From Isurus oxyrinchus (taxonomy: Eukaryota), in contig JANJGN010000385.1 of NCBI GenBank assembly GCA_026770705.1, forward strand, positions 62,001 through 126,000: a stretch of 64,000 nucleotides of DNA. Direction: 5' to 3'. A program made the translations under genes and the position numbers. Shown piece after piece: positions 711-61,770 of the stretch. Position 1 is the stretch's first letter, and the number at the start of each line of letters is the position of its first letter. A model generated the notes under the pieces. It had not been told where the DNA came from and did no database searches. It was given only the letters and a program-made list of their open reading frames with translations.

Positions 711-759
711 TGTCTCACAGTGACACATCCACCCTTTCTAATTAAACACACAGAGGGAG

Positions 760-838
760 CAGCACAGGAAGAGGTCATTCAGCTCAAGCAGAGCGTGTGG
801 GCAGTTCCTCCCCAGGCGAGCAGTCGGACAGGTCCTGG
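760..838 (+). other. Siglec gene A: non-coding first exon (start approximate)
   Basis: Strong donor CTGG|GTAAGT at 839. The exon and donor are conserved in the inverted paralog (59920-~59995). Confidence 0.65.
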
Positions 839-1288
839 GTAAGTAACGGAACGATTGGAATTCACTTCCACCACCAACACCGTCCTTTGTTGATGTTGTG
901 ACTTTATAAAGACAGATTCCAATGATTGATGCCTTTGAAAGATTTCTACTGGTTATTGAGATCTGGGTGTGAGACTCAAGTCTGTTGTACAGAACATCTT
1001 TCTAGCTCAAGGGATGAGGGAAGTGCAGAGACATGAGCTTTGGGACGTCTTGAGGTGGTGAAAGGTGCTATAGAAATGCAAATCCTTTAATGTTTTTCTT
1101 TCTTAAAGTCTTGTAACTCTCTGCAGAGCACCTATCATCCCACAGAGAATCAAATTAGTCTGTAAAGACATTGTCCAAAAACAGTTCTGATCTCTTGAGA
1201 GCTGTCGGACAAGAGGTGAGGTCTCATTAACTCCTTTCTCTTTCAGAGTTTGAGAGTCAGAAGCTTATGAAGTATCTGGGAGTGGACA

Positions 1289-1328
1289 ATGATCGGGAAA
1301 TCCTACTTCCTCCTGTCACTTCTCGAAG
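1289..1328 (+). CDS. Siglec A leader exon MIGKSYFLLSLLE (exon begins 1247)
   Basis: Acceptor TTTCAG at 1241-1246, ATG at 1289 with A at -3, phase-1 donor GTAATA at 1329. Joins V1 to give ...LLSLLEVGLSQ/EW. Confidence 0.85.
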
Positions 1329-4300: not shown

Positions 4301-7300
4301 GCTCTTTCCCGTCACTGTGTCTTCAAAGGTTTCCTGAGCAGTCAGTACACTGCGATTTCAACCCTCTCTGATGCTGCGTCTCTGTTGTGGTCTGACCAAA
4401 GCGTCGAGGGTCGTCTCATGTCATGTAGCTCGATCTCAGGCTGTTCACCACGTCATACCTGTACTGAATCTTGCTGCCAGAATGTTTGGCCACCACTGAT
4501 CACCATGTTGTGTTTTTATAATGATATAAAGGCACCAGCCACTGATACGGAATTGGGTAAATACATTGTGGGTTCAGTTATTTAGAACAGGGACATGAGA
4601 ACAGATATACAAGGATAGAAAGCTGGGAGACACCTGCAGCCAAACTGTGTGAGCTGTGTTCTGCTCACAGGCCAAAGAGAAACTTGGACTGGATGGTGTT
4701 ACCATCCCAGCTGATGTTACTACTGGGCAAGTCAGATCCCAGGGTGGAGCTCAGCTTGATAGGTCCTAACTTTTATTTTTTATTTAGGAATGTGGAGTGC
4801 GGCTACTGAACAGAGTCACAGGAGTCATCTGATGAACGTCTAACAAAAGAATAAAACATTTATTAAACTAGGAAAGACAAACTATATGACATTACTCCTT
4901 CACCGAGACCTATACCTTTACAGATACATAAGTAGAACACAAATTACGATAACTATCTTATATTCTCATGTTCACACTAAGTACACAGTCCGTGTAAACC
5001 AATAGACGACCTGTGGTCAGGGACACAACATTCTGAAGCAAGTGGCAGAGCCCACTTGAAACAAATTCTATGTCTCATCTGTCCCCAGACGCTTGTGACA
5101 CTGTGAGCCAACCAGTCTCACTGAAAAGCTTCTTTCATATGAGAGTTTCCAATCTCCACTCTCCAAGAACTCTCTTTGGAATCTCCTCCAACATGACACT
5201 TTCACTCAGACACCTTCCACAAGGGTCCACTTTCACTATTTCAAACTCTCCTTCCCATGTTCCTGTCCCCTGGATCGCCACGTGCATTCAGCCTTCCTTC
5301 CACGCCCTGTCTCTCCAATGCTCAGCCGTGTCAATGGAACACCATGGCTTCACATGGCCGTAGTAATGAGTCACCAACCTGTGGTGTCTCCTAGGATCTT
5401 CTGGCTTCTCACAAGCCTATTTTGCTTTAGGTCTGTGTCCTGCTGCTTCTTCCTTTAAGCTTGAAGCCTTCTTCTGCTCCTCATTCTTAACTTCACTTAA
5501 CAGGGCCTTTTCCAGATTTGACTAGAAGGTTTTCTTGGGCCCTTTCTCCTGTTCCACTCGATGGTTTTGGCTTCTTCTTTACTTTGGGACTGACTATCTG
5601 TCCCAATCCTTTGCTGCTTCTCCTGGCAACTCCTTTCAACAGAACTGAAAGTACTTTTCTGTTTTTCTCTGTCTCTGTGGGTCCTTCCCTCTGGATCACT
5701 GTTGCTAGGCAACAGCACAGTTTCTTACACCTTGTATTTGTTTTGACTTCCCTTCAACAGTCATAAAACCTCAATGAAATGCTGGCTTCTTTGTAACTCA
5801 AGTTCCCCCTTTTCTCAACACCCAAATACAGAAATACAAACTAAACTTGAACTTAAAGATAGACCTTTTGCCTAACACACACAAATACACATAGAACTTA
5901 CTTAAGCGAACACCAGTTCCTAAAAATCACATGACACACTTCCCCTCGAGTGATGTCATGCTGCTGTCCCTGAAAGGCATATTACAAAAGTGTTATCACT
6001 TGGCAGGTGATGTGTGCCAGGCAGACCAAGTCCATGAGAGAAAGGTGGTCACACTATCATAATGATTTTGCAATTTGTATTTATTATGAGATGTGTGCAC
6101 TTAATTCAGAAGCAATAACTCCACCAATACCTTCAGAGATTTAAAACAATAAATTAACATATTTGTCATCAAAATAAAGGATTTCAAGCACATACATAAC
6201 TACAAGACTGCTATCATAACTCCTAAAATTCCTAATTAACCTGACTCCCAGTTACAGTCCCTTTAAGGCAACAGACCAAAAATAGATGTTAGATTTAAAA
6301 CAAAATCAGCAAGTTAACCCAATGCCCCGGACAGTGGAATTCCAAATGCATTGTCCCCAACTTCAGTTCTGTTGGAGAGCAGACTTCTGCACAAACAGGG
6401 TCCTGAGGACCATGAACCAATGTAGAATGAACTTTTCCGCTTTTGTGTCCAGGATTCTCTTCCATCTGGTGTGATACCTTGTGGAGTTCATTGTGTGTCC
6501 TGTAGATGGTCCACACTGCAGCCACTGTGCCCCAGTGATGGAGGGGGTGGATATCGAGTCTAGTGGATCAACAAAACATCCAGAGTTAAATATTGATATT
6601 TCTCTCCCCAGTTGGATTGTCACAAGAGTGGAAAGGTGACACTCCACGAGAGGTGACAGCGCAGGAAGGTTCGTGTGTACAGATTCCATGTCATTACAGT
6701 TATCCATCAGATTTGGTAAAGAAACCACAGGTCGGAATCTGGAAAATGAGAAGATACATACAGAACAAATGGTCTAAATGGTCTATAGCCTTTCACTCCA
6801 AGGGTCACAGTCGCGAGTTATCACAGTTCCACCATCGGACCCGGCTGTCTGGAGACCTGAAAGATGGCGACTGTTCCCTGATTATAAACAACATCAGACG
6901 GGAAGATGCAGGATCTTATTTTTTCACGATAAAATTTGGCAATGGTCCGAGACATAACGTTTCCCCTGAAACCCAGCTTCACGTTTCTGGTAAGTGCTGT
7001 GTTATAATTACTCACCAATTCACATCCAACACTCAATGGGAAATAATAGTGTTTGATTTGCTTGTTTTTTGGCCGTGTTAACCAGCGTCACTATTTTTAA
7101 TGATTTGTCTATTTCTGCTCCCAGATCCATGAGCTTATTGTGTGTGATTGAATCCACATCATAGCTGTAACGTAAACCGAGCTGAGGGGTGATGACACCT
7201 CCCCCCTGAGTGAAGTGTCTCCTCCCCACTACACCTTCCACCCCTCACACTGTCCGTGTAAACCCCCGTCCCATCTCCAGCCTCTCTTTCCCCTCCAAAG

Positions 7301-10300
7301 TCCTTGAACGTGTTTCCATCTCCCGAATCCGGTTCCATCTTTCCCGGAACTCCATGTTTGAATCCCTCCAATCAGGTTCCCACCCCAGCCACTGTGCTGA
7401 AACAGCTCTTATCAAGGTCACAAATGGCATCCTGTGTGACTGTGACAAAGGTCAACTTTCCCTCCTCGTCCTTCTCGATCTGTCTGCAGCCTTTGACACG
7501 CTCGACCACACCATCCTCCTCCAACCCCTCTCCACTGTCGTCCAGCTGGGTGGGACTGCTCTCCCCTGGCTCCATTCTTATCCATCTCATCGTAGCCAGA
7601 GAATCACTTGCAATGGCTTTGCAGCATCATCTGAACAGTATTAGTTTTCACCTGTCCACTGAGGATCCCCAGCTCTACCTCACCACCACCTCTCTTGACT
7701 CCTCCACTGCTGCTAAATTATCAGGCTGCTTATCCGACATCCAGTACTGGATGGGCAGAAATTCCCTCCAATTAAATATTGGAAAGACTGAAGCCATTGT
7801 CTTCATTCCCCGATCCAAACTCTGTTCCCTCGCTACCAACTCCATTCCTCTCCCTGGCAGCTCTCTGAGATTGAAGCCAATCTGTTCACAGCTTTGTTGT
7901 CCCATTTGATCCTGAGATGAGCTTCCGGCCTCATATCTGCGCCCTCACTAACACCGTCTATTTCCACCTCCATAACGTCGTACGACTTCACCCTGTCTCA
8001 GCTCATCTGCTGCTGAAACCCTCATCCACGCCTTCATTACCTCCAGACTCGACTGTTCCAACACATGCTCTACACTCCATAAACTTGAGGCCATCCAAAA
8101 CTGCTGACCACGTCCTTACTCACACCAAGTCCCGTTCCCTTATCACCCGCTCTGCTCGATGACCGAGACTGGCTCCTGGTCAAGCAAAGTCTCAATGTCC
8201 AAATTTTTGAATATTTTTCCTCCCTATTACAGTAATCTCCTCCTTTATCTTCATCCACGGCAACATTCCCTATCGCAGGAGCCTCCTCCAGTCCCTACAA
8301 CCCTCTCTATCTCAGGAGCCTCCTCCAGTCCCTACAACCCTCCCTATCTCAGGAGCCTCCTCCAGTCCCTACAACCCTCCCTATCTCAGGAGACTCCTCC
8401 AGTCTCTACAACCCTCCTATCTCAGTACTCTCTTCCAATCCCGAAAACCATTCCTATCACTGCAAACTCCTCCGGACCCAACACCCCTCCCTATCTCTTT
8501 AACCTCCTCAAGCCCCGATAACCCTCGCGATATTTGTAGCCTCCTCCAGTCCTAACAACCTCCACTATCTCTGCAAACTCCTCCAGACCGAATACCTCTC
8601 CTATCTCTGTAAGCTGGTCCATCTCTTACAACCCTTCATATTTCTGTAACCTCCTCCAGCCCACTACAACCCTCCCTATCTCTGTAACCTCCTCCAGTCC
8701 CTAAGAGTTTCCTTCATCTCTGTAACTCCTCCAGCCATTATAACCCTCCCTATCTCTGTAGCCTCCCTCAGCCCCAGCCACACTCCATATCTATGTAACC
8801 TCGTCCTGCCCCTACAACCCTCCCTATCTCTGTAACCCCATCCTGCCCCAAAAACTCCCCCATCTCTGTAAACTCCTCCAGTCCCTGCAACCTTCCCTAC
8901 CTCTGGAACCTCCACCAGCCTTTCCAACCCTCCCTACCTCTGCAATCCGTCCAGCCCCTACAACTCTTCCTATCCCTGTAAACTCCTCCTGCCCCTAAAA
9001 CCCTCTCTGCCCTTGCAGCCTCCTCCAGTCCCTACACGTTCCCCATCTCCATAAACTCCTCAAATCCCTATAGCCCTCCCTATCTCTGCAACCTCCTCCA
9101 GGTCCTACCACCCTCCCTATCTGCGTAATGTCCTCCAGTATCTACAGCCCTCCCTATCTCTGTTACCTCCTCCAGCCCCCACAAACCTCCCTATCAGTGT
9201 AACCTCCTCCAGCCCCAGATGGAAGGTGGGTCGAGCGGGTCAGTCACTTGCATGTTTATTCTGCAGCTTTAATATTTTAAGAAGGTAAGAATGTAGGAAC
9301 ATAAGAAATAGGGACAGGAGCAGGCCATTCGGCCCCTCGAGCCTGCTCTCACTGATCTGGTTGTGGCCTTAACTCCATTTTCCTGCCTGTCCCCCAAACC
9401 CTTGACTCCCTTGTCGATCAAAAACCTGCCTCACTCAGCCTTGAGTCTATTCAATGGCCCAGACTCCACTGCTCTCTGGGGAAGAGAATTCCACAGGCTA
9501 GCGCCCCTCTGAGAGAGGAAATTCCTCCTCATCTCAGTCTTAGATGGGAGAGCCCTCATTCCGAAACTGTGCTCCCTGGTTCTAGATTCCCCCACGAGGG
9601 GGAAACATCCTCCCAGCATCCACCCTGTCAAGCCCCCTCGGAATCGGATATGTTTCAATAAGGTCACCCCTCATTCTTCTAAACTCCAATGGATACAGGC
9701 CCAACCTGCTCAACATTTCCTCACAGGACAAACCCTTTAATCCCAGGAATCAGCCCAGTGAACCTCCTCTGAACTGCCTCCAATGCAACTCTATCCCTCC
9801 CTAAGTAAGGAGACCAGAACTGTACACACTGCTCCTGATACAATCTCACCAACGCCCTGTGCAGCTGCTGCAAGACTTCCCTCCTTTTATACCCCATCCC
9901 TTTGCAATAAAGGCCAACATTCCACTTGCCTTCCTCATTCCGTGGTGTTCCTGAATGCTGACTTTCTGTGATTCATGTACAAGGACACCCAGATCCCTCT
10001 GTACTGCATTCTGCAGCCTGTCTCCATTTAAATAATATCCTGTTTTTCTATTCTTCCTGCCAAAATAATTTGTTGCCATTCTCCTCAGTATTGACCATCC
10101 CCCCAATTCAGCCTCATCTGTAAATTTTGAGTCTAGTGGATCCACAAACCATCCAGAGTTAAATATTGAGATTTCTCTCCCCAGATAAACCCTCACAAGA
10201 GTGGAAAGGTGACAGTCCACGAGAGGTGACAGCACAGGAAGGTTCGTGTGTACAGATTCCATGTCATTACAGTTATCCATTGTGTCCGGAAAACCAACCG

Positions 10301-13300
10301 CGAGGTGGAGTCTGGTTTAATAATGAGAAACAGATTCCCTGGGCTCCCATTGCCTTTCACTCCAAGGATCACAGTCACGAGTTACCACGGTTCCACCATC
10401 GGACCCGGCTGTCTGGAGACCTGAAAGATGGCGACTGTTCCCTGATTATAAACAACATCAGACGGGAAGATGCAGGAACTTATATTTTCAGAATAGAATT
10501 TGACAATGGTCCGGGCCATAACTATTACCCTGTAACCCAGCTTCACGTTTCTGGTAAGTGCTGTGTTATAATTACTCAACAATTCACATTCAACACTCAA
10601 TGGGAAATAACACAAACTGTGACGTTTACATATTAACACAAAACACAGCTAATTATAACACACTGTCTGATTCTCGATAACCTGGTGATAGCTTCCAGTT
10701 CAGTCCTAAAACAACCTCTAATACTCACTTTAATATCAGTGGTTAAATGTATTGACTGTGTCCATCAATGTTATCAGGTTATCCACTTACATCAATCTCC
10801 CTAATCCTGTTTAAAATTCTTACATATCAACAAAAGAAAGATTTGCATTTCTATAGCGCCTTTCACCACCTTTTGACGTCGCAAATGGATTCACAACCAT
10901 TGAAATAATTCTTGAAATGTAGCCCTTGTTGTAATATAGGAAACACAGCAGCCAATTTGTGCACAGGAAGCTCCCAGAAACAGCAATGTGATCAATAACC
11001 TGATCGTCTGCTTTAAATGCCGGTTCAGTGATTGGTTCAAATGGATTCTCTCCTGCTGGGAACTGGATAGAATTTAAATCTGGCAGATTTCGGAGAAAGT
11101 AACAAGCCAGTGTGTCAGGAACTGTGAGCTGATCCCCCACCCTCACCCGGGATTGTCAATTCAATTGTCTCAAAGTGGAAGTGAATTCATCTGAGTGACT
11201 GAAACTCCACTAAGTCTGAAAATAGGAAAGTCTCTCCTGATCGTTGTAATCTCTCAGTTCTGATATCATCCTTGTAAAAGTGCTTTTTCTTGTGGGACTG
11301 TGATTTCTATTTGAACTGATGCTTCACGTTATATTTCTCTAAAAGGATCCATTCTCTGTCTGTTAGATTTCACAGATAAACCCATGATATTCCCTGCTGA
11401 AATTATTGCAGGGAAGCGTGTGGATGTAAGCTGCACCTTCAACACAACGTGCAATGGAACAGCAGCACCTGTCTTAACCTGGGACACTCCCACTGACGTA
11501 CCTGGATCAGTCTCAAACACTGTAACTCAGCATGGTGTCACTCTGACCTATACTTCTGTTCTGACCCTGATCTCATCACTCAAACACCACGGACACACTC
11601 TAAGCTGCAGAGTGAGATATCCATCTGTTTCATCGGAGCGGACCCTCGTATTAACTGTACAAGGTAAGTACTGAAACCCTTGATTCTATATTAGCTGTAA
11701 TAGGTTACAATGTGCAGAGCAAGATCCCACAAACATCACTGGGTTGAAGACAAAACAGGTCCTTTTTTATTAGTGATATTGACCAGGGAGAGCTCTTCCT
11801 GTATTGAGCCTTGGGATTGTTTATGCCTACCTGATAGGGCAGAGGGGGCCAAGGTTGAACTTAAAAGACAATATAGGATAATATAAATATTGTCTTCATT
11901 GATGTCAAAGATTTTGGGGGTGATGTAGTATAAAAGTTTAATATTAACAATGTAAATAGATAGTATTTATCATCAGTTACTCAAGGTTACATGAGAATAG
12001 AACACGGAGAGAGATAGTTCTATAGATACCTAGGTACATAGAAACTAGGAGCACGATTAGGACATTCAGCCCTTCAAGCCTTCTCCGCCATTCAATATGA
12101 TCAAGGCTGACCCTCTATCTCAAAGCCTTATTCCCGCTTTCTCTCCGTACCCTTTGATGCCCCTAATATCAAAATATTTATCAGTTTCTTTCTTGAATAC
12201 ACTCAGTGACCCGGCCTCCACAGCCTCTGTGATGGAGAATTCCACAGATTGACCACCCTCTGAGTGAAGAAATGTTTCCCTATCTCAGTCCAAAATGGCC
12301 TGCCCTGTATCCTGAGATTGTCGCCCTTGGTTTTAGACTCCCCAACCAGGGGATGCATCCTCCCTCCATCCAGTCTGTCTATCTCTGTTAGAATTTCTTA
12401 CGTTTATTCAGGTCTCCTCTCATTCTTCTAAACTCTAGTGAATACAGACCCAGTCGTAGCAATTCTCCTCATACGACAGTCCTGCCGCCCCTGGTATCAG
12501 CCTAGAGAACCTTCTCTGCACTCTCTCGAAGGCAAGTCTATCCTTTTTTAGGGAGGGAGACCAAAACGGCACGTAGTACCCCATGTGCAGTCTCACCAAG
12601 ACCTTGTATAACTGCAGTGAGACATCCCTACTCCTGAACACAAATCCTCTTGCAATGAAGGCCAACATACCATTTGCCTTCCGAATTACTTGCTGCACCT
12701 GCCTGTTTACTTTCATTGGCTAGTGCACAAGGACACCCAGATCCCTTTATACATCCACATTTCCCATTATATCACCATTTAAATAATACTCTGCCTTTCT
12801 GTTTTTCACACCAAAGCCTACAATGTCACATTCAACCACATCATCTGCCATGTGTTTGCCCACACACACAACTTGTCTAAATCGCCTTGAAGCCTCTTTG
12901 CATCCTCCTCACAGCTCACACCCTTACCCAGCGTTGTGTCATCAGAAAACCTGGAAATATTGCACTTGGCTCCTTCACCCAAGTCATTTAAATATATCGT
13001 GAATAGTTAGGTCCCAAGCACGGATCGCTGTGGTACACCACTAGTCACCGCCTGCCACTCAGATAAAGACTAATTTATTCTGACCCTCTGTTTCCTGTCT
13101 GTCGACCAATTCTCAATCCATGCCAGTAAATAACCCGCAATCCCATGGGCTTTAATGTTGCGCACTAGCCTCATGTAGGACCTTATCAAAAGCCTTCTTG
13201 AAATCTAAAAACACCACATCCACTGGTTATCCCTTATCTATTCCACAAGTTACATCCTCAAAATCTCCAGTAGATTAGTTAAGCATGATTTTCCTTTCAT

Positions 13301-54551: not shown

Positions 54552-54691
54552 TCAAACAGTCTGTCGACTTCCTTTCACTGTTTGTCTCTCCCAGACACAG
54601 ACTCCAGCGATAGTGATAACCACAGCCACAAGGAATATCACAGCTCGTATTCCCAGGATCAGGATCACGTGCAGAATCTCTCCTCCACTGT
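54552..54691 (-). CDS. Gene B TM + short tail exon (H)SGGEILHVILILGIRAVIFLVAVVITIAGVCVWERQTVKGSRQTV*
   Basis: Pyrimidine-rich TCTCTAG acceptor; phase 1 matches the upstream Ig donor; CGA (Arg) at 54647-54645 inside the hydrophobic stretch; TGA at 54554-54552. Not in the ORF track frame. Confidence 0.82.
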
Positions 54692-57600
54692 CTAGAGAAC
54701 ACACAGAAAGAAATCATCACTGACTCTCCGCTTTCAATCTCTCACTCTGGCTGAACAATCAAGCTTCATATCACTGCAACATTTGCTGTAATATTGACCC
54801 ATCCACTGGGATTCAATGTGGAATGAATGTTTTCATTGTAAACACTCTAAGAGTGGACAATCGGAACTTTCCCCTTAGCGTGGAACATTGGTGAGAATGG
54901 ATCATTGTGCTGTTGGACTCCCTGTCCAATGTTTCTCTCCATCGCTGTGTACAGGATTGTGCTGTAGAAAATTCTGGAAACGTTTAGTGCAGGGTAGAAA
55001 TCCATCTCGGACGCGTGTGCGAATCGGGCAAGATCGAGATGGACTCCCCCATGGACTTACACCCCCCGCTTAATAAACAGGTCCAATCTTTATCCAGAGA
55101 GAGGGGAGAATGTGGAACTCGCTCCCACAGGGAGTGGTCGAGGTGAACAGTATCGATGTATTTAAGGGGCAGGAGGGTCGGTAACCAGAGGGACACAGAT
55201 TGACGAACCGGAGGGGGAGATGAGGAGAATTTGTTTTGACAGAGTGAGTTGTTGTGATCTGGAAGGTTCTGCCTGAAAGGGCGGTGGAAGCAGATTCAAT
55301 AGGAACTTTCAAAAGGGAAATTGGATAAACACTTGAAGGAGGAAGATGGGGGCAAAGTGGAGTGGTGGTTAGTGGATCTGATGGGATAGAACATTGAAAG
55401 ACCTGGCACAGGCTCAATGGGCTGAATGGCCTCCTCCTGTGCTGTATCATTCTCCGCTTCCATGATCTCTCCCCCAGTCAGTAACCACTCCAGATCCCTC
55501 TTGAAGGTGACAGAGAGACAGCAACCACCACACCCACTGACAGCACATTCCCGAGGATCCCTACTCTCTGGGAAAAGATGAACTCCCCAACATCCAGCCT
55601 ATTCCTGCTTCCCAGAGAGTGTAAACCCTTCAGGGAGGCACTGAGGAAGTTTTCAATAAAATGAATTATCAAATCTATCATTTGAGAAATAATTTAATTC
55701 TGATGAACTCACAGCTTGTGTAGCAAACTGGGAAGTGGAGTTGCTGGGAAAGCTGGGAAACACAAGGATGAAGGGCTACAATGCCACCACTGGTGGGAGG
55801 CTGTAACTACAGCGTGACGTTTACATAGGCAGTCATCATTATAAACAGGGGCATTGCACATAATGGGAATTATGTGCACGGAAATAGTGAGAACATTATG
55901 TAAGCTTTTCACCAGCAGGAATTCTCTTCCTAAACCTCTCCAACTCTCTCTTACTCTCAGATACACAAAGAAAATCACACAGAATCAGATAAGGAAGAAT
56001 TAGGTTGGTGATTCGTCAAAGGGTTAGGTTTCAGGAAGCTTCTTAAAAGGAGAGAGAGAGTTGGAGACGCAGAGAGTATCTGTGAGAGCCTCTATGCATC
56101 TGAGTGTCTGTAATAGTAATTTCCATATTCTTCCATAAATATGAATGGGAACACAAATCCCAGAATTCAGGCCAACTCTCCAGTGCAGTACTGAGGGAGG
56201 TCAGGTAACCCATGAGGGAGTGAGTGTTAGTGTTTGTGTGTGAGTGTGTCTTTGTGTGTGGTCATATATGTGTGTCTGCACGTGTCTATTTAGGTGTGTA
56301 TGTTCGATGGTGTTTGTGTAGTGTTCAAATCTGAGAGAGATGTTGAAGTCTGTGTAACTCACGTTCCACACTGATGGTTATGAACCCATCCACTGCTCCA
56401 TGTTCATTCTCTGCCACACACTGATAGTCTCCAGTGTCCCTGGATGTAACATGAGGAATCACCAACCACAGCTCATTGTTGGAACTTGTTCTGTTCATTT
56501 GGACATTCAGATGTCATGGCAGGAATCAAGAAGCCCGTTCACAGGATTATCAACAGAAAGTGAACAACAATTTATACTTAATGGGAAGAGAGTGCTGATT
56601 GGTTGGCAAGTGGACTCTGATAGGTGGAGGTGTTGCCATGGAGAATGGTGTGTGCGAGATGTAAAGTTTAGACAGCTTGTCTCTTCATTCAGCAATAATC
56701 AAATAAAGATCAATTAAATTCTATCGACTTTGAAGCACTTAGAGAGGCCTTAGAATGTGGACACTGAGAACGGGCTGCACTGTCAGAGGGTCTGCGCTGA
56801 GGGAGTGCTGATGTAGAATGAAAGGTGTATGTAATTACCTTGCACTGTTAGTACGAGGGTCCGCTCCGATGAAACAGATGGATATCTCACTCGGCAGCTG
56901 AGAGTGTGTCCGTGGTGTTTGAGTGATGGGATCAGGGTCAGAACAGAAGTATAGGTCAGAGTGACACCATGCTGAGTTACAGTGTTTGAGACTGATCCAG
57001 GTACGTCAGTGGGAGTGTCCCAGGTTAAGACAGGTGCTGCTGTTCCATTGCACGTTGTGTTGAAGGTGCAGCTTACATCCACACGCTTTCCTGCAATAAT
57101 TTCAGCAGGGAATATCATGGGTTTATCTGTGAAATCTAACAGACAGAGAATGGATCCTTTTAGACAAATATAACGTGAAGCATCAGTTCAAATAGAAATC
57201 ACAGTCCCACAAGAGAAAGCACTTTTACAAGGATGATATCAGAACTGAGAGGTTACAATGATCAGGAAAGATTTTCTTGCTCTTTGGCAGTAGTGTTTCT
57301 GTCTCTCAGCTTAATACACGTTCACTCCGAGACATGTGAATTGAGAATACTGGATGAGAGAAGAGGCTCAGTCCAGAGATTGGAGTTAAAAGCAGAATAC
57401 TGCGGATGCTGGAAATCTGAAACAAAAACAAAAATTGCTGGAAAGACTCAGCAGGTCTGACAGTATCAGTGGAGAGGAAGACAGGGTTAACGTTTCAAGT
57501 CTGTATGACTCTTCATCAGACCAGAGGTTTGAGTTCACTGGCTTCTCATTTCCTCAGTGATCTGGGTGATTTATCACCTTGTGGTTTGTTGGATCTTGCT

Positions 57601-59995
57601 GTGCACAAACTGACTGCTGTGTTTTACATCTGTGACTACAATTCAGGAATAATTTCATTGGCTGTGAAGGGATTTGGATCCTCCTGAGGTGGTAAATTGC
57701 GCTGCAGAAATGCACATCTTTCTTTTATCGATACGTGAGACTTTTAAACAGGACAGGAGAGATTGATGGGAGTGGATAACCTGATAATACAGTTAATGCT
57801 TTTCATCATTGATATTAAAGTGAGTATTAGAGGTTGCTTTAGGACTGAACTGGAAGCTATCACCAGGTTATTGAGAATCAGATAGCAAGTTATAATAAGC
57901 TGTGTTTTGTGTTAATATGTAAACGTCACAGTTTGTGTTATTTCCCATTGAGTGTTGAATGTGAATTGTTGAGTAATTATAACACAGCACTTACCAGAAA
58001 CGTGAAGCTGGGTTACAGGATAGTAGCTTTAACTATTCCTGCTGTCAAATTCTATTCTGAAAAAAATAAGGTCCTGCATCTTTCCGTCTGATGTTGTTTA
58101 TAATCAGGGAACAGTCGCCATTTTTCAGGTCTCCAGACAGCCGGGTACGATGGCGGAATCTTTGATCCCTGTGACTGTGACCCTCGGAGTGAAAGGCTAT
58201 AGACCATTTAGGCTGTAGGGTTCCCATCTATTCCTGTCAACCAGATTCCGACACGTGATCTCCCTACGAAATGTGATGATTAACTGTCATGACATGGAAT
58301 CTGTACACAGGAACCTTCCTGCGCTGCCACCTCTCGTGGAGTGTCGCCTTTCCACTCTTGTGACAGTCCAAGTGGGGAGAGAAATATCAATATTTAACTC
58401 TGGAAGGTTTGTAGATCCACTAGACTCGATATCCACCCCCTCCATCACTGGGGCACAGTGGCTGCAGTGTGGACCATCTACAGGACACACATGGAACTCC
58501 CCAAGGTTTCACAATGGATGGAAGAGAATCCTGGACACAGGAGTGGACAAGTTCATTCTACATTGGCTCATGGTCCTCAGGACCCTGTTTAGTGAAGCCA
58601 GTCTTCCACCCAACACAGTGTCTACAAGATACACAGAGAAACTGTGTAAACATCTCATCTCTCTAAACTGACTGGCTTGGCTTCGGTTTAACTTTCAGTA
58701 TTTTTAAATTTCCATATTGTGGTTGCTATGGTGAAACTGTGCAGGAAGAGTGAGGGCTGGACTCTCTGTCTATTCTCACTGCAGCTGTGATGTGGCCGTG
58801 GTGATTGTCAGTAAAATGAAACCCTCTGATCTCCTCCATCCCCGAGGTTTAGGGAGTGAATTCCAGAGCTCAGGCCCCAGGCAGCTGAAGGCACGGCCGC
58901 CAGTATTGGATTGATGGGAATCGGGGGATGGTCAAGAGGCCGGAATTGCAGTAACACAGAGATCTGGGAAGTTGTTTGGTTGAGTTGCAGGAGGTTTCAG
59001 AGATTAAGAGATAAGAATGATCTTTTACAAAGACTGTTAAACATAATTCTGTCTGAGCTGATGATGATATTACCTTGGGAAAGTGACAAGAGGAAGTAGA
59101 TTTCCCGATCATCGTCCACTCCCAGATATTCCATCCACTTCTCACTCTCAAGCTGTGAAAGAGAAAGGAGTTAATGAGACGTCACCTCTTGTCCGAATGC
59201 TCTCGAGAGATCAGAACTGCTTTTAGACAATGTCTTCACAGACTAATTTGATTCTCTGTGGGATGATAGGTGCTCTGCAGAGAGTTACAAGGCTTTAAGA
59301 AAGAAGAACATTTAAGGATTTGCATTTCTATAGCACCTTTCACCACCTCAAGACGCTCATGTTTTGAGATCTTGGTGAACTGTTAACCGTTTGTGTCCTG
59401 ACCCTGTGGTGATATTTCTGCTCAGAGGTGGACAGTCATTGACCAGGAGTTTCTCCTGTGGGTCAGTGGGTTTCACAGCCAAATTCAGGGGCTCTGAACA
59501 TTGTGGGATTCAAGACCCCATTCAGGGGACGTCTGCCCCACAGAGTAGACTGAAACTCCCCAGTGTCAGTACTGAGCAAGTGCTGCACTGTCGGATGGTC
59601 ATTACTGAGCAAGTGTTGTACTATTGTAAGGTCAGTACTGAGGGGGATCTCCACTGTTGGAGGGTCAGTACTGAGGGAGTGCTGCACTGTCAGAGGGACA
59701 TTTATCAGGGAGTGCTGCACTGTTGGAGGGTCAGTACTGAGGGAGTACTGCACTGTCAGAGGGACATTAATCAGGGAGTGCTGCACTGTTAGAGGATCAG
59801 TACTGAGGGAGTGCCGCACTGTTGAAGGGTCAGTATTAAGGTGCTGATTTAGAAGACAGGACAATGTGTTAGGAGCCCTCAGAACTTCCCCCGTGATTTC
59901 CAATCGATCCGTTACTTACCCAGGACCTGTCTGACTGCTTGCCTGGGGAGGAACTGCCCACACGCTCTGCTTGGGCTGAATGGGCCTCCTCCTGT
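54552..59995 (-). pseudogene. Siglec gene B: inverted paralog, activating type (leader-V-C2-C2-TM with Arg-short tail), disabled
   Basis: 5'UTR exon ~59995-59920; leader 59152-59074 (1 nt short); V 58371-57995 (acceptor AG>AC at 58372, TAA at 58282-58280 and 58031-58029, frameshifts); intact C2 57135-56839; 5'-truncated C2 ~56516-56363; intact TM/tail exon 54691-54552. Confidence 0.88.
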
Positions 59996-61770
59996 TCCTG
60001 TGTAACAGGCTTGATGGGGCTGAATGGGCCTCCTCCTATTCCTGTGTAACAGGCTTGAGGGGGCTGAATGGGCCTCCTCCTGTTCCTGTGTTATAGGCTC
60101 GAGGGGCTGAGTGGGCCTCCTCCTGTTCCTGTGTAAAAGGCTAAAGGGGCTGAATTGGCCTTCCCCAGTTCCTGTGTACCAGGCTCGAGTACATTAGGAG
60201 CATCATTGGGAGCAGCATTTCACTTGCACTTCCCTCAATTTAATCTACTGCCTTCACTGCTCCCAATGTGGTCTCCTCTACATGGGACAGACCAAACACA
60301 GACTGGGTGATCGCTCTGATGAACACCTTCGGTCTGTCCACAAGCATGACCCAGACCTCCCTGTCACTTGCCATTTTAACACCCCACCCTGCTCTCATGC
60401 CCACATGTCCGTCCTTGGCCTGCTGCATTGTTCCAGTGAAGCCCAACACAAACTGGAGGAACAGCACCTCATCTTCCGACCTGGCACTTTACAGCCTTCC
60501 CGACTGAATATTGAGTTCAACACTTTCAGATCATGAACTCTCTCCTCCATCCCCACCCCCTTTCCAATCTCCCTTTTTCCAATAATTTATCATTTTTAAT
60601 ATTTTTTTTTATTTATATATTTTTCTTTTCCCACCTATTTCCATTATTTTTAAATGTTTTACATCTGTTGTTGTATCTCTACCTTTTAGCCGATTTCAAT
60701 CCTTTCCCCCCACCCCACCCCCACTAGGACTATCTGTCTCTTGCTCGTCCTGCTTTCTACCCTTAATGTCCCCATTAGCACATTCCTCAGATAATATCAC
60801 CACCGTCAACACCCCTTTGTCCTTTTGTCTATCACATCTTTGGCAACCTCTTCTTTACCTCCACCTATCACTGGCCCACAATCCAGCTCTACCTGCCCCA
60901 CCCCCTCTACCAGCTAAAACGTCACCTCATTTCTCGATTCCCTTAGTTCTGATGAAGAGTCATACAGACCCAAAACGTCAAGTGTGTTCCTCTCCGCAGA
61001 TCCTGTCAGACCTGCTGAGTTTTTCCAGCTATTTTTGTTTTTGCTCCTGTTCTTGTGGAACAGGCTTGAGTGGCTGAATGGAGCCCCTAAAGTTCCTGTG
61101 TAACAAGCTTGTGGAGGCTGAATGGGTCTCCTGTACCTGTGAAACAGGCTCAAGGGGACAGAATGGGCCTCCTCCTGTTCCTGTGTAACAGGCTCGAGGG
61201 GGCTGAATGGGCCTCCTCCTGTTCCTGTGTAACAGGCTCGAGGAGGGTGAATGGGCCTCCTCCTCTTCCTGTGTAACAGGCTCGAGGGGACAGAATGGGC
61301 CTCCTCCTGTTCCTGTGTAACAGGCTCGAGGGGGCTGAATGGGCCTCCTCCTCTTCCTGTGTAACAGGCTCAAGGGGCTGAATGGGTTTCCTATTCCTGT
61401 GTAAGAGGGTTGAGAGACTGAATGTGCTCTTCCTGTTCCTGGATAACAGGCTAATGTGACTGAATGGCCTCCTCTTGTTCCTGTGTTACAGGCTCTATGG
61501 GGCTGAATAGGACTCCTCCTTTTCCTGTGTAACAGGCTCGAGGGGCTGAGAGTCTCTCCTGTTCCTGTGGAAGGGTGTTGAGAGACTGAATGGCCTCTTC
61601 CTGTTCCTGTGTAATAGGCTCATGAGGCTGATGGGCCTTCTCCTGTTCCTGTGTAACAGGCTCAGGTGCTGAATGGGCCTCCTGCTGTTCCTGTGTAACA
61701 GGCCCAAGGAGGCTGAATGGGCCTCCTCCTGTTCCTGTGTAACAGGCTCAGGTGCTGAATGTCCTCCTCT
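59970..61770 (+). repeat. ~42-bp CR1-tail-like minisatellite arrays upstream of gene B, split by a Penelope element
   Basis: Arrays at ~59970-60190 and ~61040-61770. Confidence 0.88.
60215..61040 (+). mobile_element. Penelope-like element 3' fragment
   Basis: Near-identical to the copy at ~18.0-18.8 kb (MGQTKHRLGDRSDEHLRSV..LNIEFNTFRS). Confidence 0.88.

What the first reader, a model, noticed from the sequence alone, without database searches (positions are those of the whole stretch)
6612..10553. Two tandem V-set domains: distal one lacks the sialic-acid Arg, proximal one keeps it
Seen: V1 reads YFFTIKF (Thr, 6926) and V2 reads YIFRIEF (Arg, 10490); V1 also lacks the G-strand aromatics (HNVSP versus HNYYP). 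V2 starts DKPSQ rather than the leader-completing VGLSQ, which fits internal use. Both exons are phase 1-1, so either can be skipped. Known: Siglecs normally have one V-set domain, Siglec-12 being the two-V exception. Inference: V1 is a decoy, shield or protein-binding cap, and splicing could give binding and non-binding isoforms.
Basis: partly seen in the sequence, partly recalled or inferred. Interest (0 to 1): 0.72.

Follow-up and report, generated by a model that had tools for sequence, protein, structure and literature searches.

The report
Shark Siglec with arginine-less outer cap
A shark immune-receptor gene stacks two sugar-binding-type domains and the outer one lacks the arginine that grips sialic acid, a loss that recurred in outer domains at least three times in this very large gene family, likely because the inner domain keeps the sugar-binding job and frees the outer one to sense something else.

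Summary
In detail: V1 (6612-6989) has Thr and V2 (10185-10553) has Arg at the Siglec F-strand site, and both exons are phase 1-1. The gene is a shark Siglec-like receptor with an ITIM tail, from a family of at least 652 V exons in which stacked V domains are common, not an exception.

V1 belongs to an outer-only 'cap' class with a basic, Trp-rich loop. The Arg was replaced non-conservatively in three expanded lineages (Thr/Met 53, Ser 21, Gly 7) and one single copy. All 82 are first V exons. Inner V exons carry an extra loop Cys (83 of 85, against 3 of 100 N-terminal), which likely bonds to the V above.

The splice switch is doubtful: leader-V2 gives a poor signal peptide and an orphan Cys. 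The Thr clade shows no purifying signal, so drift remains a serious rival. This copy has a frameshifted third C2 exon; 6 of 7 sister genes are open. The scan noted the Arg loss and the extra Cys before on other DNA of this genome.

The parts
1289..1328 (+). Leader exon (phase 1); its last codon is Glu where most paralogues have Gln
   Evidence: Glu in 7 of 73 leader-like matches, one of them a spurious hit. A GT..AG joint from this donor to the V acceptor is seen in contigs of 3 of 4 runs from related organisms.
6612..6989 (+). V1, outer 'cap' V-set exon: Thr at the essential Arg (6926-6928), Lys two residues on, G-strand VSP, basic Trp-rich C-C' loop, Siglec Cys 21/26/87
10185..10553 (+). V2, inner V-set exon: Arg at 10490-10492, G-strand YYP, internal start DKPSQ, extra B-C loop Cys (residue 33)
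11367..11663 (+). C2 exon a, with the loop Cys that aligns to the MAG Ig2 partner of the V-C2 disulfide
   Evidence: joint 10553>11367 in contigs of 4 of 4 runs; MAG alignment
16190..16471 (+). C2 exon b, open
17388..17667 (+). C2 exon c, 280 nt, frameshifted by a 2-nt deletion (stop at codon 466 if included; in frame if skipped)
   Evidence: the deleted form is in 2 of 59 copies of this exon type
19537..19812 (+). C2 exon d, open
20769..21062 (+). membrane-proximal Ig exon, open
21983..22079 (+). transmembrane exon, no charged residue in the helix
22804..24420 (+). first tail set (exons 22804-22885 and 24172-24420): weakened ITIM (FLYANP) and TEYAQI
25600..27393 (+). second tail set (exons 25600-25681 and 27145-27393): ITIM-type LLYTNI and ITSM-like TEYAQI

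Best explanation
This gene encodes a shark Siglec-like, likely inhibitory receptor with two stacked V domains, in which the inner domain keeps the arginine and likely binds sialic acid, while the outer domain lacks it and likely acts as a cap for a different, probably acidic or protein, ligand. Shown by sequence: the architecture, the outer-only cap class, repeated Arg loss in caps, and the extra Cys of inner domains. Inferred: V1 Cys21 bonds to V2 Cys33 as V and C2 do in MAG, so V1-V2 is a fixed unit rather than a splice switch. Also inferred: the inner Arg makes the outer Arg dispensable, and the basic Trp-rich loop is the new binding surface. This particular copy gives a full-length receptor only if its frameshifted third C2 exon is skipped or is an assembly error; its near-identical sisters are open.
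For: Position rule: all 53 Thr/Met exons of the census start with the leader-completing VGL. None has a V within the 5.5 kb fetched upstream, and all have a V directly downstream; that V has Arg in 49 of 53, and 4 were cut off by the end of the stretch. All 21 Ser exons are first V with an Arg V behind. The 7 Gly exons found last also follow a leader and precede a V (Arg seen in 6 of 7). Independence: Thr/Met plus Ser/Gly as one clade is rejected (p-AU 6e-39, Arg codon removed). The 7 Gly exons plus the Ser group is rejected too, and GGA and ACG differ at all three bases. First-of-stack exons are 39 of 123 in the C52 sample, so three or four events all falling there has a chance of about 0.03 to 0.01 (my arithmetic). 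Caps are one side of a 100/99 branch and occur with Arg in Carcharodon and Cetorhinus, so the class predates the losses. Mean loop charge is +6.6 in Thr/Met caps against -0.5 in inner domains. Between cap lineages the loop has pN above pS (0.30-0.36 against 0.18-0.21 in three comparisons). Thr/Met caps are broken no more often than inner exons (5 of 54 against 6 of 91; singles 11 of 35). Loop Cys: 83 of 85 inner against 3 of 100 N-terminal exons, and 32 of 41 against 9 of 83 in other sharks and rays. The MAG C37-C165 bond is described in PMC5150538 (passages). Contigs of related organisms join V end to V start at the exact splice sites (sides under 31 letters, so weak).
Against: There is no purifying signal in the Thr/Met clade. 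Pairwise pN/pS is 1.42 (framework 1.10) against 0.53 for inner exons. The variant ratio is 1.86 (CI 1.02-4.70) and does not differ significantly from inner exons (p 0.14). Exon diversity is 3.8% against 1.9% in the downstream intron. The Thr/Met group is one clade, so 53 copies are one event, and Thr/Met plus the 7 Gly exons as sisters is not rejected (p-AU 0.41). Counter-cases: Lys in 4 last and 2 single V exons, and Ser in 2 broken single V exons. Two ray proteins keep Arg in V1 and have Lys or Ser inside, so the polarity is lineage-specific. Many caps keep the Arg (15 of 32 in the C52 sample). No binding data exist, and the disulfide distance could not be measured. Patterns miss some V exons, so the census is a lower bound.
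Confidence: 0.5

Rival explanations
1. Relaxed selection: once an inner V supplies the Arg, the outer V is a mere spacer. Its Arg decays neutrally, and the mutant cassette spreads by duplication and gene conversion with no new ligand.
For: No purifying signal in the Thr/Met clade. Four stops and one lost donor among 54 exons. The V1-intron-V2 block is homogenised between sisters (intron 2 differs by 0.2-0.6%, intron 1 by about 2.7%). It explains the position rule equally well.
Against: The cap loop is distinct, basic and shared with other lamniform sharks. Three lineages expanded after the loss with mostly open exons (49 of 54, 21 of 21, 7 of 7). The structural Cys and Trp are kept. Inner Arg exons also look near-neutral on the variant count (0.98), so the test has little power.
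Confidence: 0.3
2. V1 still binds acidic glycans, through the Lys two residues after the Thr (same strand face), its basic loop, or a Siglec-6-like second pocket at the domain interface. The receptor would then be bivalent.
For: The R-I-K form exists in Carcharodon and Cetorhinus caps, so the Lys likely came first. The D-strand Arg is kept in all 49 intact Thr/Met exons. Siglec-6 binds glycolipids without its canonical Arg, using a pocket that needs the interdomain disulfide (PMC10122656, passages).
Against: Ser and Gly clades have no such Lys. The G-strand tyrosines are lost in 26 of 54 Thr/Met exons and in 0 of 140 intact Arg exons, as expected if the pocket is dead.
Confidence: 0.12
3. One reading: V1 or V2 is skipped to give binding and non-binding isoforms.
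For: Both exons are phase 1-1 with near-identical splice sites. 17 of 85 inner V exons in the family start with VGL and could complete a leader.
Against: In this gene leader-V2 gives a weak signal peptide and an unpaired Cys (inferred). The inner-type start and Cys are conserved across sharks and rays, which points to constitutive internal use.
Confidence: 0.08

Closest known systems
Primate Siglec-12 / human Siglec-XII
   Same: Two N-terminal V-set domains, C2 domains, tyrosine-motif tail; Arg missing from V1 in humans (PMC7876704 and PMC6288428, passages).
   Different: Human Siglec-XII lacks Arg in both V domains, and chimpanzee Siglec-12 binds through the terminal V. The shark polarity is the reverse. 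It is also not one gene but dozens, with stacks of up to 7 V and an extra inner-V Cys. Orthology was not tested.
CD33-related Siglecs (CD33, Siglec-5, -7, -8, -10) and MAG
   Same: Best PDB sequence hits of V1 and V2 and best fold hits of a related shark V-V-C2 model. Siglec Cys pattern and ITIM plus ITSM-like tail.
   Different: These have one V domain. A teleost study states that fish lack inhibitory CD33-related Siglecs (PMC7226832, passages; the word 'shark' does not occur in it).
Siglec-6 non-canonical pocket; ape Siglec-5/14 without the Arg
   Same: Siglec V domains that work or persist without the canonical Arg.
   Different: Single-V proteins with no inner Arg-bearing partner domain.
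[quoted passage not shown]
   Same: Same family; 32 of 86 hits have 2 or more V domains.
   Different: None of the 86 hits, nor the further cluster members parsed, has Thr at the Arg site. They are machine names, and some models probably fuse neighbouring genes.

Membership tests
Siglec family | N-terminal V-set domain with the Siglec Cys pattern (B-E sheet bond plus interdomain Cys) | tested here: met
   Cys 21/26/87 in V1 and 21/26/84 in V2 align with CD33 and Siglec-5
Siglec family | Essential F-strand Arg in the N-terminal V domain | tested here: not met
   Thr in V1; Arg only in V2. Hence filed as Siglec-like, of the Arg-lacking kind
Siglec family | A- and G-strand aromatic residues of the sialic-acid pocket (roles recalled; MAG Y127) | tested here: inconclusive
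   A-strand Trp kept in both; G-strand Tyr-Tyr only in V2
Siglec family | Following Ig domain supplies the partner Cys of the interdomain disulfide | tested here: met
   C2a loop Cys aligns with MAG Ig2; V2 has a loop Cys for V1. Met by sequence only; the bond itself was not measured
Siglec family | Sialic-acid-dependent binding | not testable with these tools
   needs binding assays
CD33-related Siglecs | Neutral TM helix with ITIM and ITIM/ITSM-like tail motifs | tested here: met
   LLYTNI and TEYAQI, uncharged TM
CD33-related Siglecs | Clustered, fast-evolving family with conversion and pseudogenes | tested here: met
   at least 652 V exons; homogenised blocks; broken copies
CD33-related Siglecs | Orthology or synteny with the mammalian CD33-related cluster | not tested
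   no tree with tetrapod Siglecs was built; C2a is closest to MAG
Siglec-12 type (two V-set) | Two V domains with the ligand-binding Arg in the terminal V | tested here: not met
   the polarity is reversed

The most novel reading that the evidence does not exclude
Sharks run a modular, hundreds-strong Siglec repertoire in which disulfide-locked stacks of V domains split the work. Inner domains read self sialic acid. A dedicated outer cap class has repeatedly discarded the arginine under pathogen pressure and become a diversified receptor for non-sialic ligands, so that one inhibitory receptor integrates two kinds of signal.
Probability: 0.3. Interest if true: 0.8.

Novelty: new variant of a known kind. 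Interest (0 to 1): 0.58.

Why it matters
Siglecs are described as single-V lectins with one two-V exception, and inhibitory CD33-type Siglecs are said to be missing from (bony) fish. A shark genome with hundreds of such V exons, stacks of up to seven, and repeated loss of the key Arg in the outer domain gives natural replicates for an open question: why Siglecs lose this Arg and what they bind afterwards. Matched Arg-keeping and Arg-lacking cap domains exist side by side and can be compared directly.

Tried and rejected
- RNA of this species: no RNA holder was listed, which says nothing on expression. Contigs laid from related organisms read Arg at the F-strand codon in the three contigs that covered it; these are paralogues in other species, so this is no test of Thr-V1 expression. 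No silent control stretch was laid.
- The idea that DKPSQ was copied from the C2 exon start was dropped: the used C2a acceptor lies 9 nt upstream and DKP is a point variant of AEP/DEP.
- Assembly duplication as the cause of V1/V2 was rejected: the exons are 87% alike and the intron between them is not a repeat of the flanks.
- Exon-versus-intron conservation among the six closest sisters is uninformative because the whole V1-V2 block is homogenised.
- Branch-wise substitution counts were not obtained; selection rests on pairwise and segregating-site counts, which cannot separate relaxed from diversifying selection.
- The single-sequence model of V1 was too poor to use (pLDDT 49.6). The model of a related V-V-C2 protein (pLDDT 75) gave no coordinates, so the disulfide was not measured.
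- The new N-V-S sequon in V1 is followed by Pro and is probably poorly used (recalled rule), so I do not build on it.
- Two miscounted patterns found nothing and were replaced.
- Ten paper searches listed no paper on shark multi-V Siglecs. Subscription papers are not searched and no supplements were read; supplementary file 9 of PMC8455134 may list Siglec families.
Full report
The observation. V1 (6612-6989) and V2 (10185-10553) are open phase 1-1 exons, 87% alike in DNA, with differences concentrated in the first nine bases, the B-C/C-C' loops and the F-G region. The codon at 6926 is Thr and that at 10490 is Arg. Both align with the essential Arg of CD33, Siglec-5 and Siglec-7.

The gene. It has a leader at 1289-1328, V1, V2, five further Ig exons, an uncharged TM exon and two tandem sets of tail exons, the second with LLYTNI and TEYAQI. 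Contigs from related organisms (RNA status guessed by the tool; paralogues, not this gene) join the leader donor to the V acceptor in 3 of 4 runs and the V donor to 11367 in 4 of 4. The nearest proteins are from Cetorhinus and Carcharodon, so this is most likely a lamniform shark. This copy has two flaws. Its third C2 exon is 280 nt and would stop the protein at codon 466; only 2 of 59 copies of that exon type have this deletion. Its leader ends in Glu instead of the usual Gln. Of 7 sister genes fetched, 6 are open throughout and 1 has a stop in a C2 exon (the 'STOP' flags on the first tail exon there come from my wrong phase setting, and one search shows that exon open).

The family. One F-strand pattern finds 604 V exons and a second finds 48 others. 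Counts may be inflated if the assembly holds both haplotypes, but one contig alone carries four identical V1 copies. In a near-complete sample of the first 2.55 Mb of contig C52, 39 of 72 V arrays hold two or more V exons, up to seven (a few clusters were only partly fetched). Among 86 shark and ray proteins, 32 have two or more V domains (some models probably fuse neighbouring genes). So two V domains are ordinary in elasmobranchs, against the statement that Siglec-12 is the only such Siglec (PMC7876704, passages).

Inner V exons are a specialised type. Of 85 intact inner V exons, 83 carry an extra Cys in the B-C loop, against 3 of 100 N-terminal ones (201 intact of 227 complete exons, 16 of unknown position left out). 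One of the three later proved to be inner. In other sharks and rays the figures are 32 of 41 and 9 of 83. The Cys lies seven residues after the B-strand Cys. In the C2 domain the partner of the Siglec interdomain bond lies six after it (alignment to MAG; C37-C165 in PMC5150538, passages). I infer that V1 is stapled to V2 as V2 is to C2; this was not measured. Contigs of two runs join a V end to a V start exactly at the splice sites, once to the AEP type, but with sides under 31 letters.

V1 belongs to an outer-only class. Exons whose C strand runs into a basic, aromatic loop were found as first V of a stack in 76 of 78 cases; the other two are one of unknown position and one broken inner copy. 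They form one side of a 100/99 branch in a tree of 81 exons (59 caps and 22 of 83 other unique exons; the loop columns were included). Mean loop charge is +6.6 in the Thr/Met group and -0.5 in inner exons. The same loop types occur with Arg in Carcharodon and Cetorhinus, including an R-I-K form.

Arg loss. Within the 604 exons the census gives 46 Thr, 7 Met and 6 Lys, 1 Ser and 7 Gly. Within the other 48 it gives 21 Ser and 1 Gly. All 53 Thr/Met, all 21 Ser and all 8 Gly exons are first V exons with another V behind them. That V has Arg wherever it was fully fetched (49 of 53, 21 of 21, 7 of 8). The 7 Gly exons were found after the rule had been formed and fitted it. Thr/Met is one clade. A common origin with the Ser group is rejected. 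A sister relation with the 7 Gly exons is not rejected, but their codons differ at all three bases. That makes at least three events, four with the single Gly copy. Against a background share of 39 of 123, this has a chance of about 0.03 to 0.01. Against the rule: Lys in four last and two single exons, Ser in two broken single exons, 15 of 32 caps in the C52 sample keeping Arg, and two ray proteins with the reverse polarity. Loss of the G-strand tyrosines occurs in 26 of 54 Thr/Met exons and 0 of 140 intact Arg exons, which reads as a second step after the Arg was gone.

Selection. Thr/Met caps are broken in 5 of 54 cases, inner exons in 6 of 91 and single exons in 11 of 35. There is no purifying signal in the Thr/Met clade: pairwise pN/pS is 1.42, the variant ratio is 1.86 with CI 1.02-4.70 (the 5 exons with a different loop left out), and the exon is more variable than the downstream intron. 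Inner exons also come out near 1 on the variant count, and gene conversion is evident. These data cannot separate diversifying selection from drift.

Mechanism. Most likely (0.5) the receptor is a fixed V1-V2 unit. V2 likely binds self sialic acid and signals through the ITIM tail, and V1, freed of that task, likely presents a basic aromatic surface to another ligand, which could be microbial. Pure relaxation (0.3) explains the position rule equally well and lacks only an account of the conserved, distinct loop. Residual acidic-glycan binding by V1 (0.12) has a precedent in Siglec-6 (PMC10122656, passages). The splice switch (0.08) is hindered by the poor leader-V2 junction.

Known and new. 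The closest known case is Siglec-12/XII, with the reverse polarity in chimpanzee and both Arg lost in humans. A teleost study says fish lack inhibitory CD33-related Siglecs (PMC7226832, passages). The whale shark genome paper mentions Siglecs once (PMC8455134, one passage). Ten searches listed no paper on shark multi-V Siglecs, though NCBI's automatic names already tag such proteins. Earlier notes of this scan report the Arg loss and the extra Cys on other DNA of this genome. I had found both before that look-up, and the notes are not independent support. Verdict: real, a new variant of a known kind, interest 0.58.

Noticed in passing
window 17388-17667: The third C2 exon has a 2-nt deletion and a frameshift. 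The same deletion is in one other copy (G000:C52:440200) of 59, so it is either recurrent or an assembly error.
   Followed up: partly
window 22804-27393: The two tail exons are duplicated; the first set has a weakened ITIM and the second an intact one. The same arrangement is in 4 of 7 sister genes, so alternative tails could tune signalling.
   Followed up: partly
window 1267-1328: An out-of-frame ATG lies 22 nt upstream of the leader start. Two Carcharodon protein models begin with its reading (P0085, P0086), so it is conserved and could dampen translation.
   Followed up: no
window 755-839: An exon-like stretch reads like the first tail exon of another Siglec type (compare P0017 and P0025); it may belong to the upstream gene or to the 5' UTR. 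A similar stretch lies on the minus strand near 59900-60000.
   Followed up: no
window 54600-59134 (minus strand): A single-V Siglec-like pseudogene: leader, frameshifted V, C2a, a truncated C2 and what looks like a TM remnant.
   Followed up: partly
window 44670-46625: A signal-peptide-like exon and a short second exon of an unrelated gene; not identified.
   Followed up: no
G000:C52:1871363-1887100 (L172, L173): A seven-V stack: one Ser-type cap followed by six Arg-bearing V exons at about 2.3 kb spacing, a candidate multivalent sialic-acid receptor.
   Followed up: partly
L113, L115, L117, L118: The reverse arrangement: an Arg-keeping cap over an inner V with Lys at the Arg site.
   Followed up: partly
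P0009, P0015: Ray proteins with four V domains keep Arg in the first and have Lys or Ser in inner ones.
   Followed up: no
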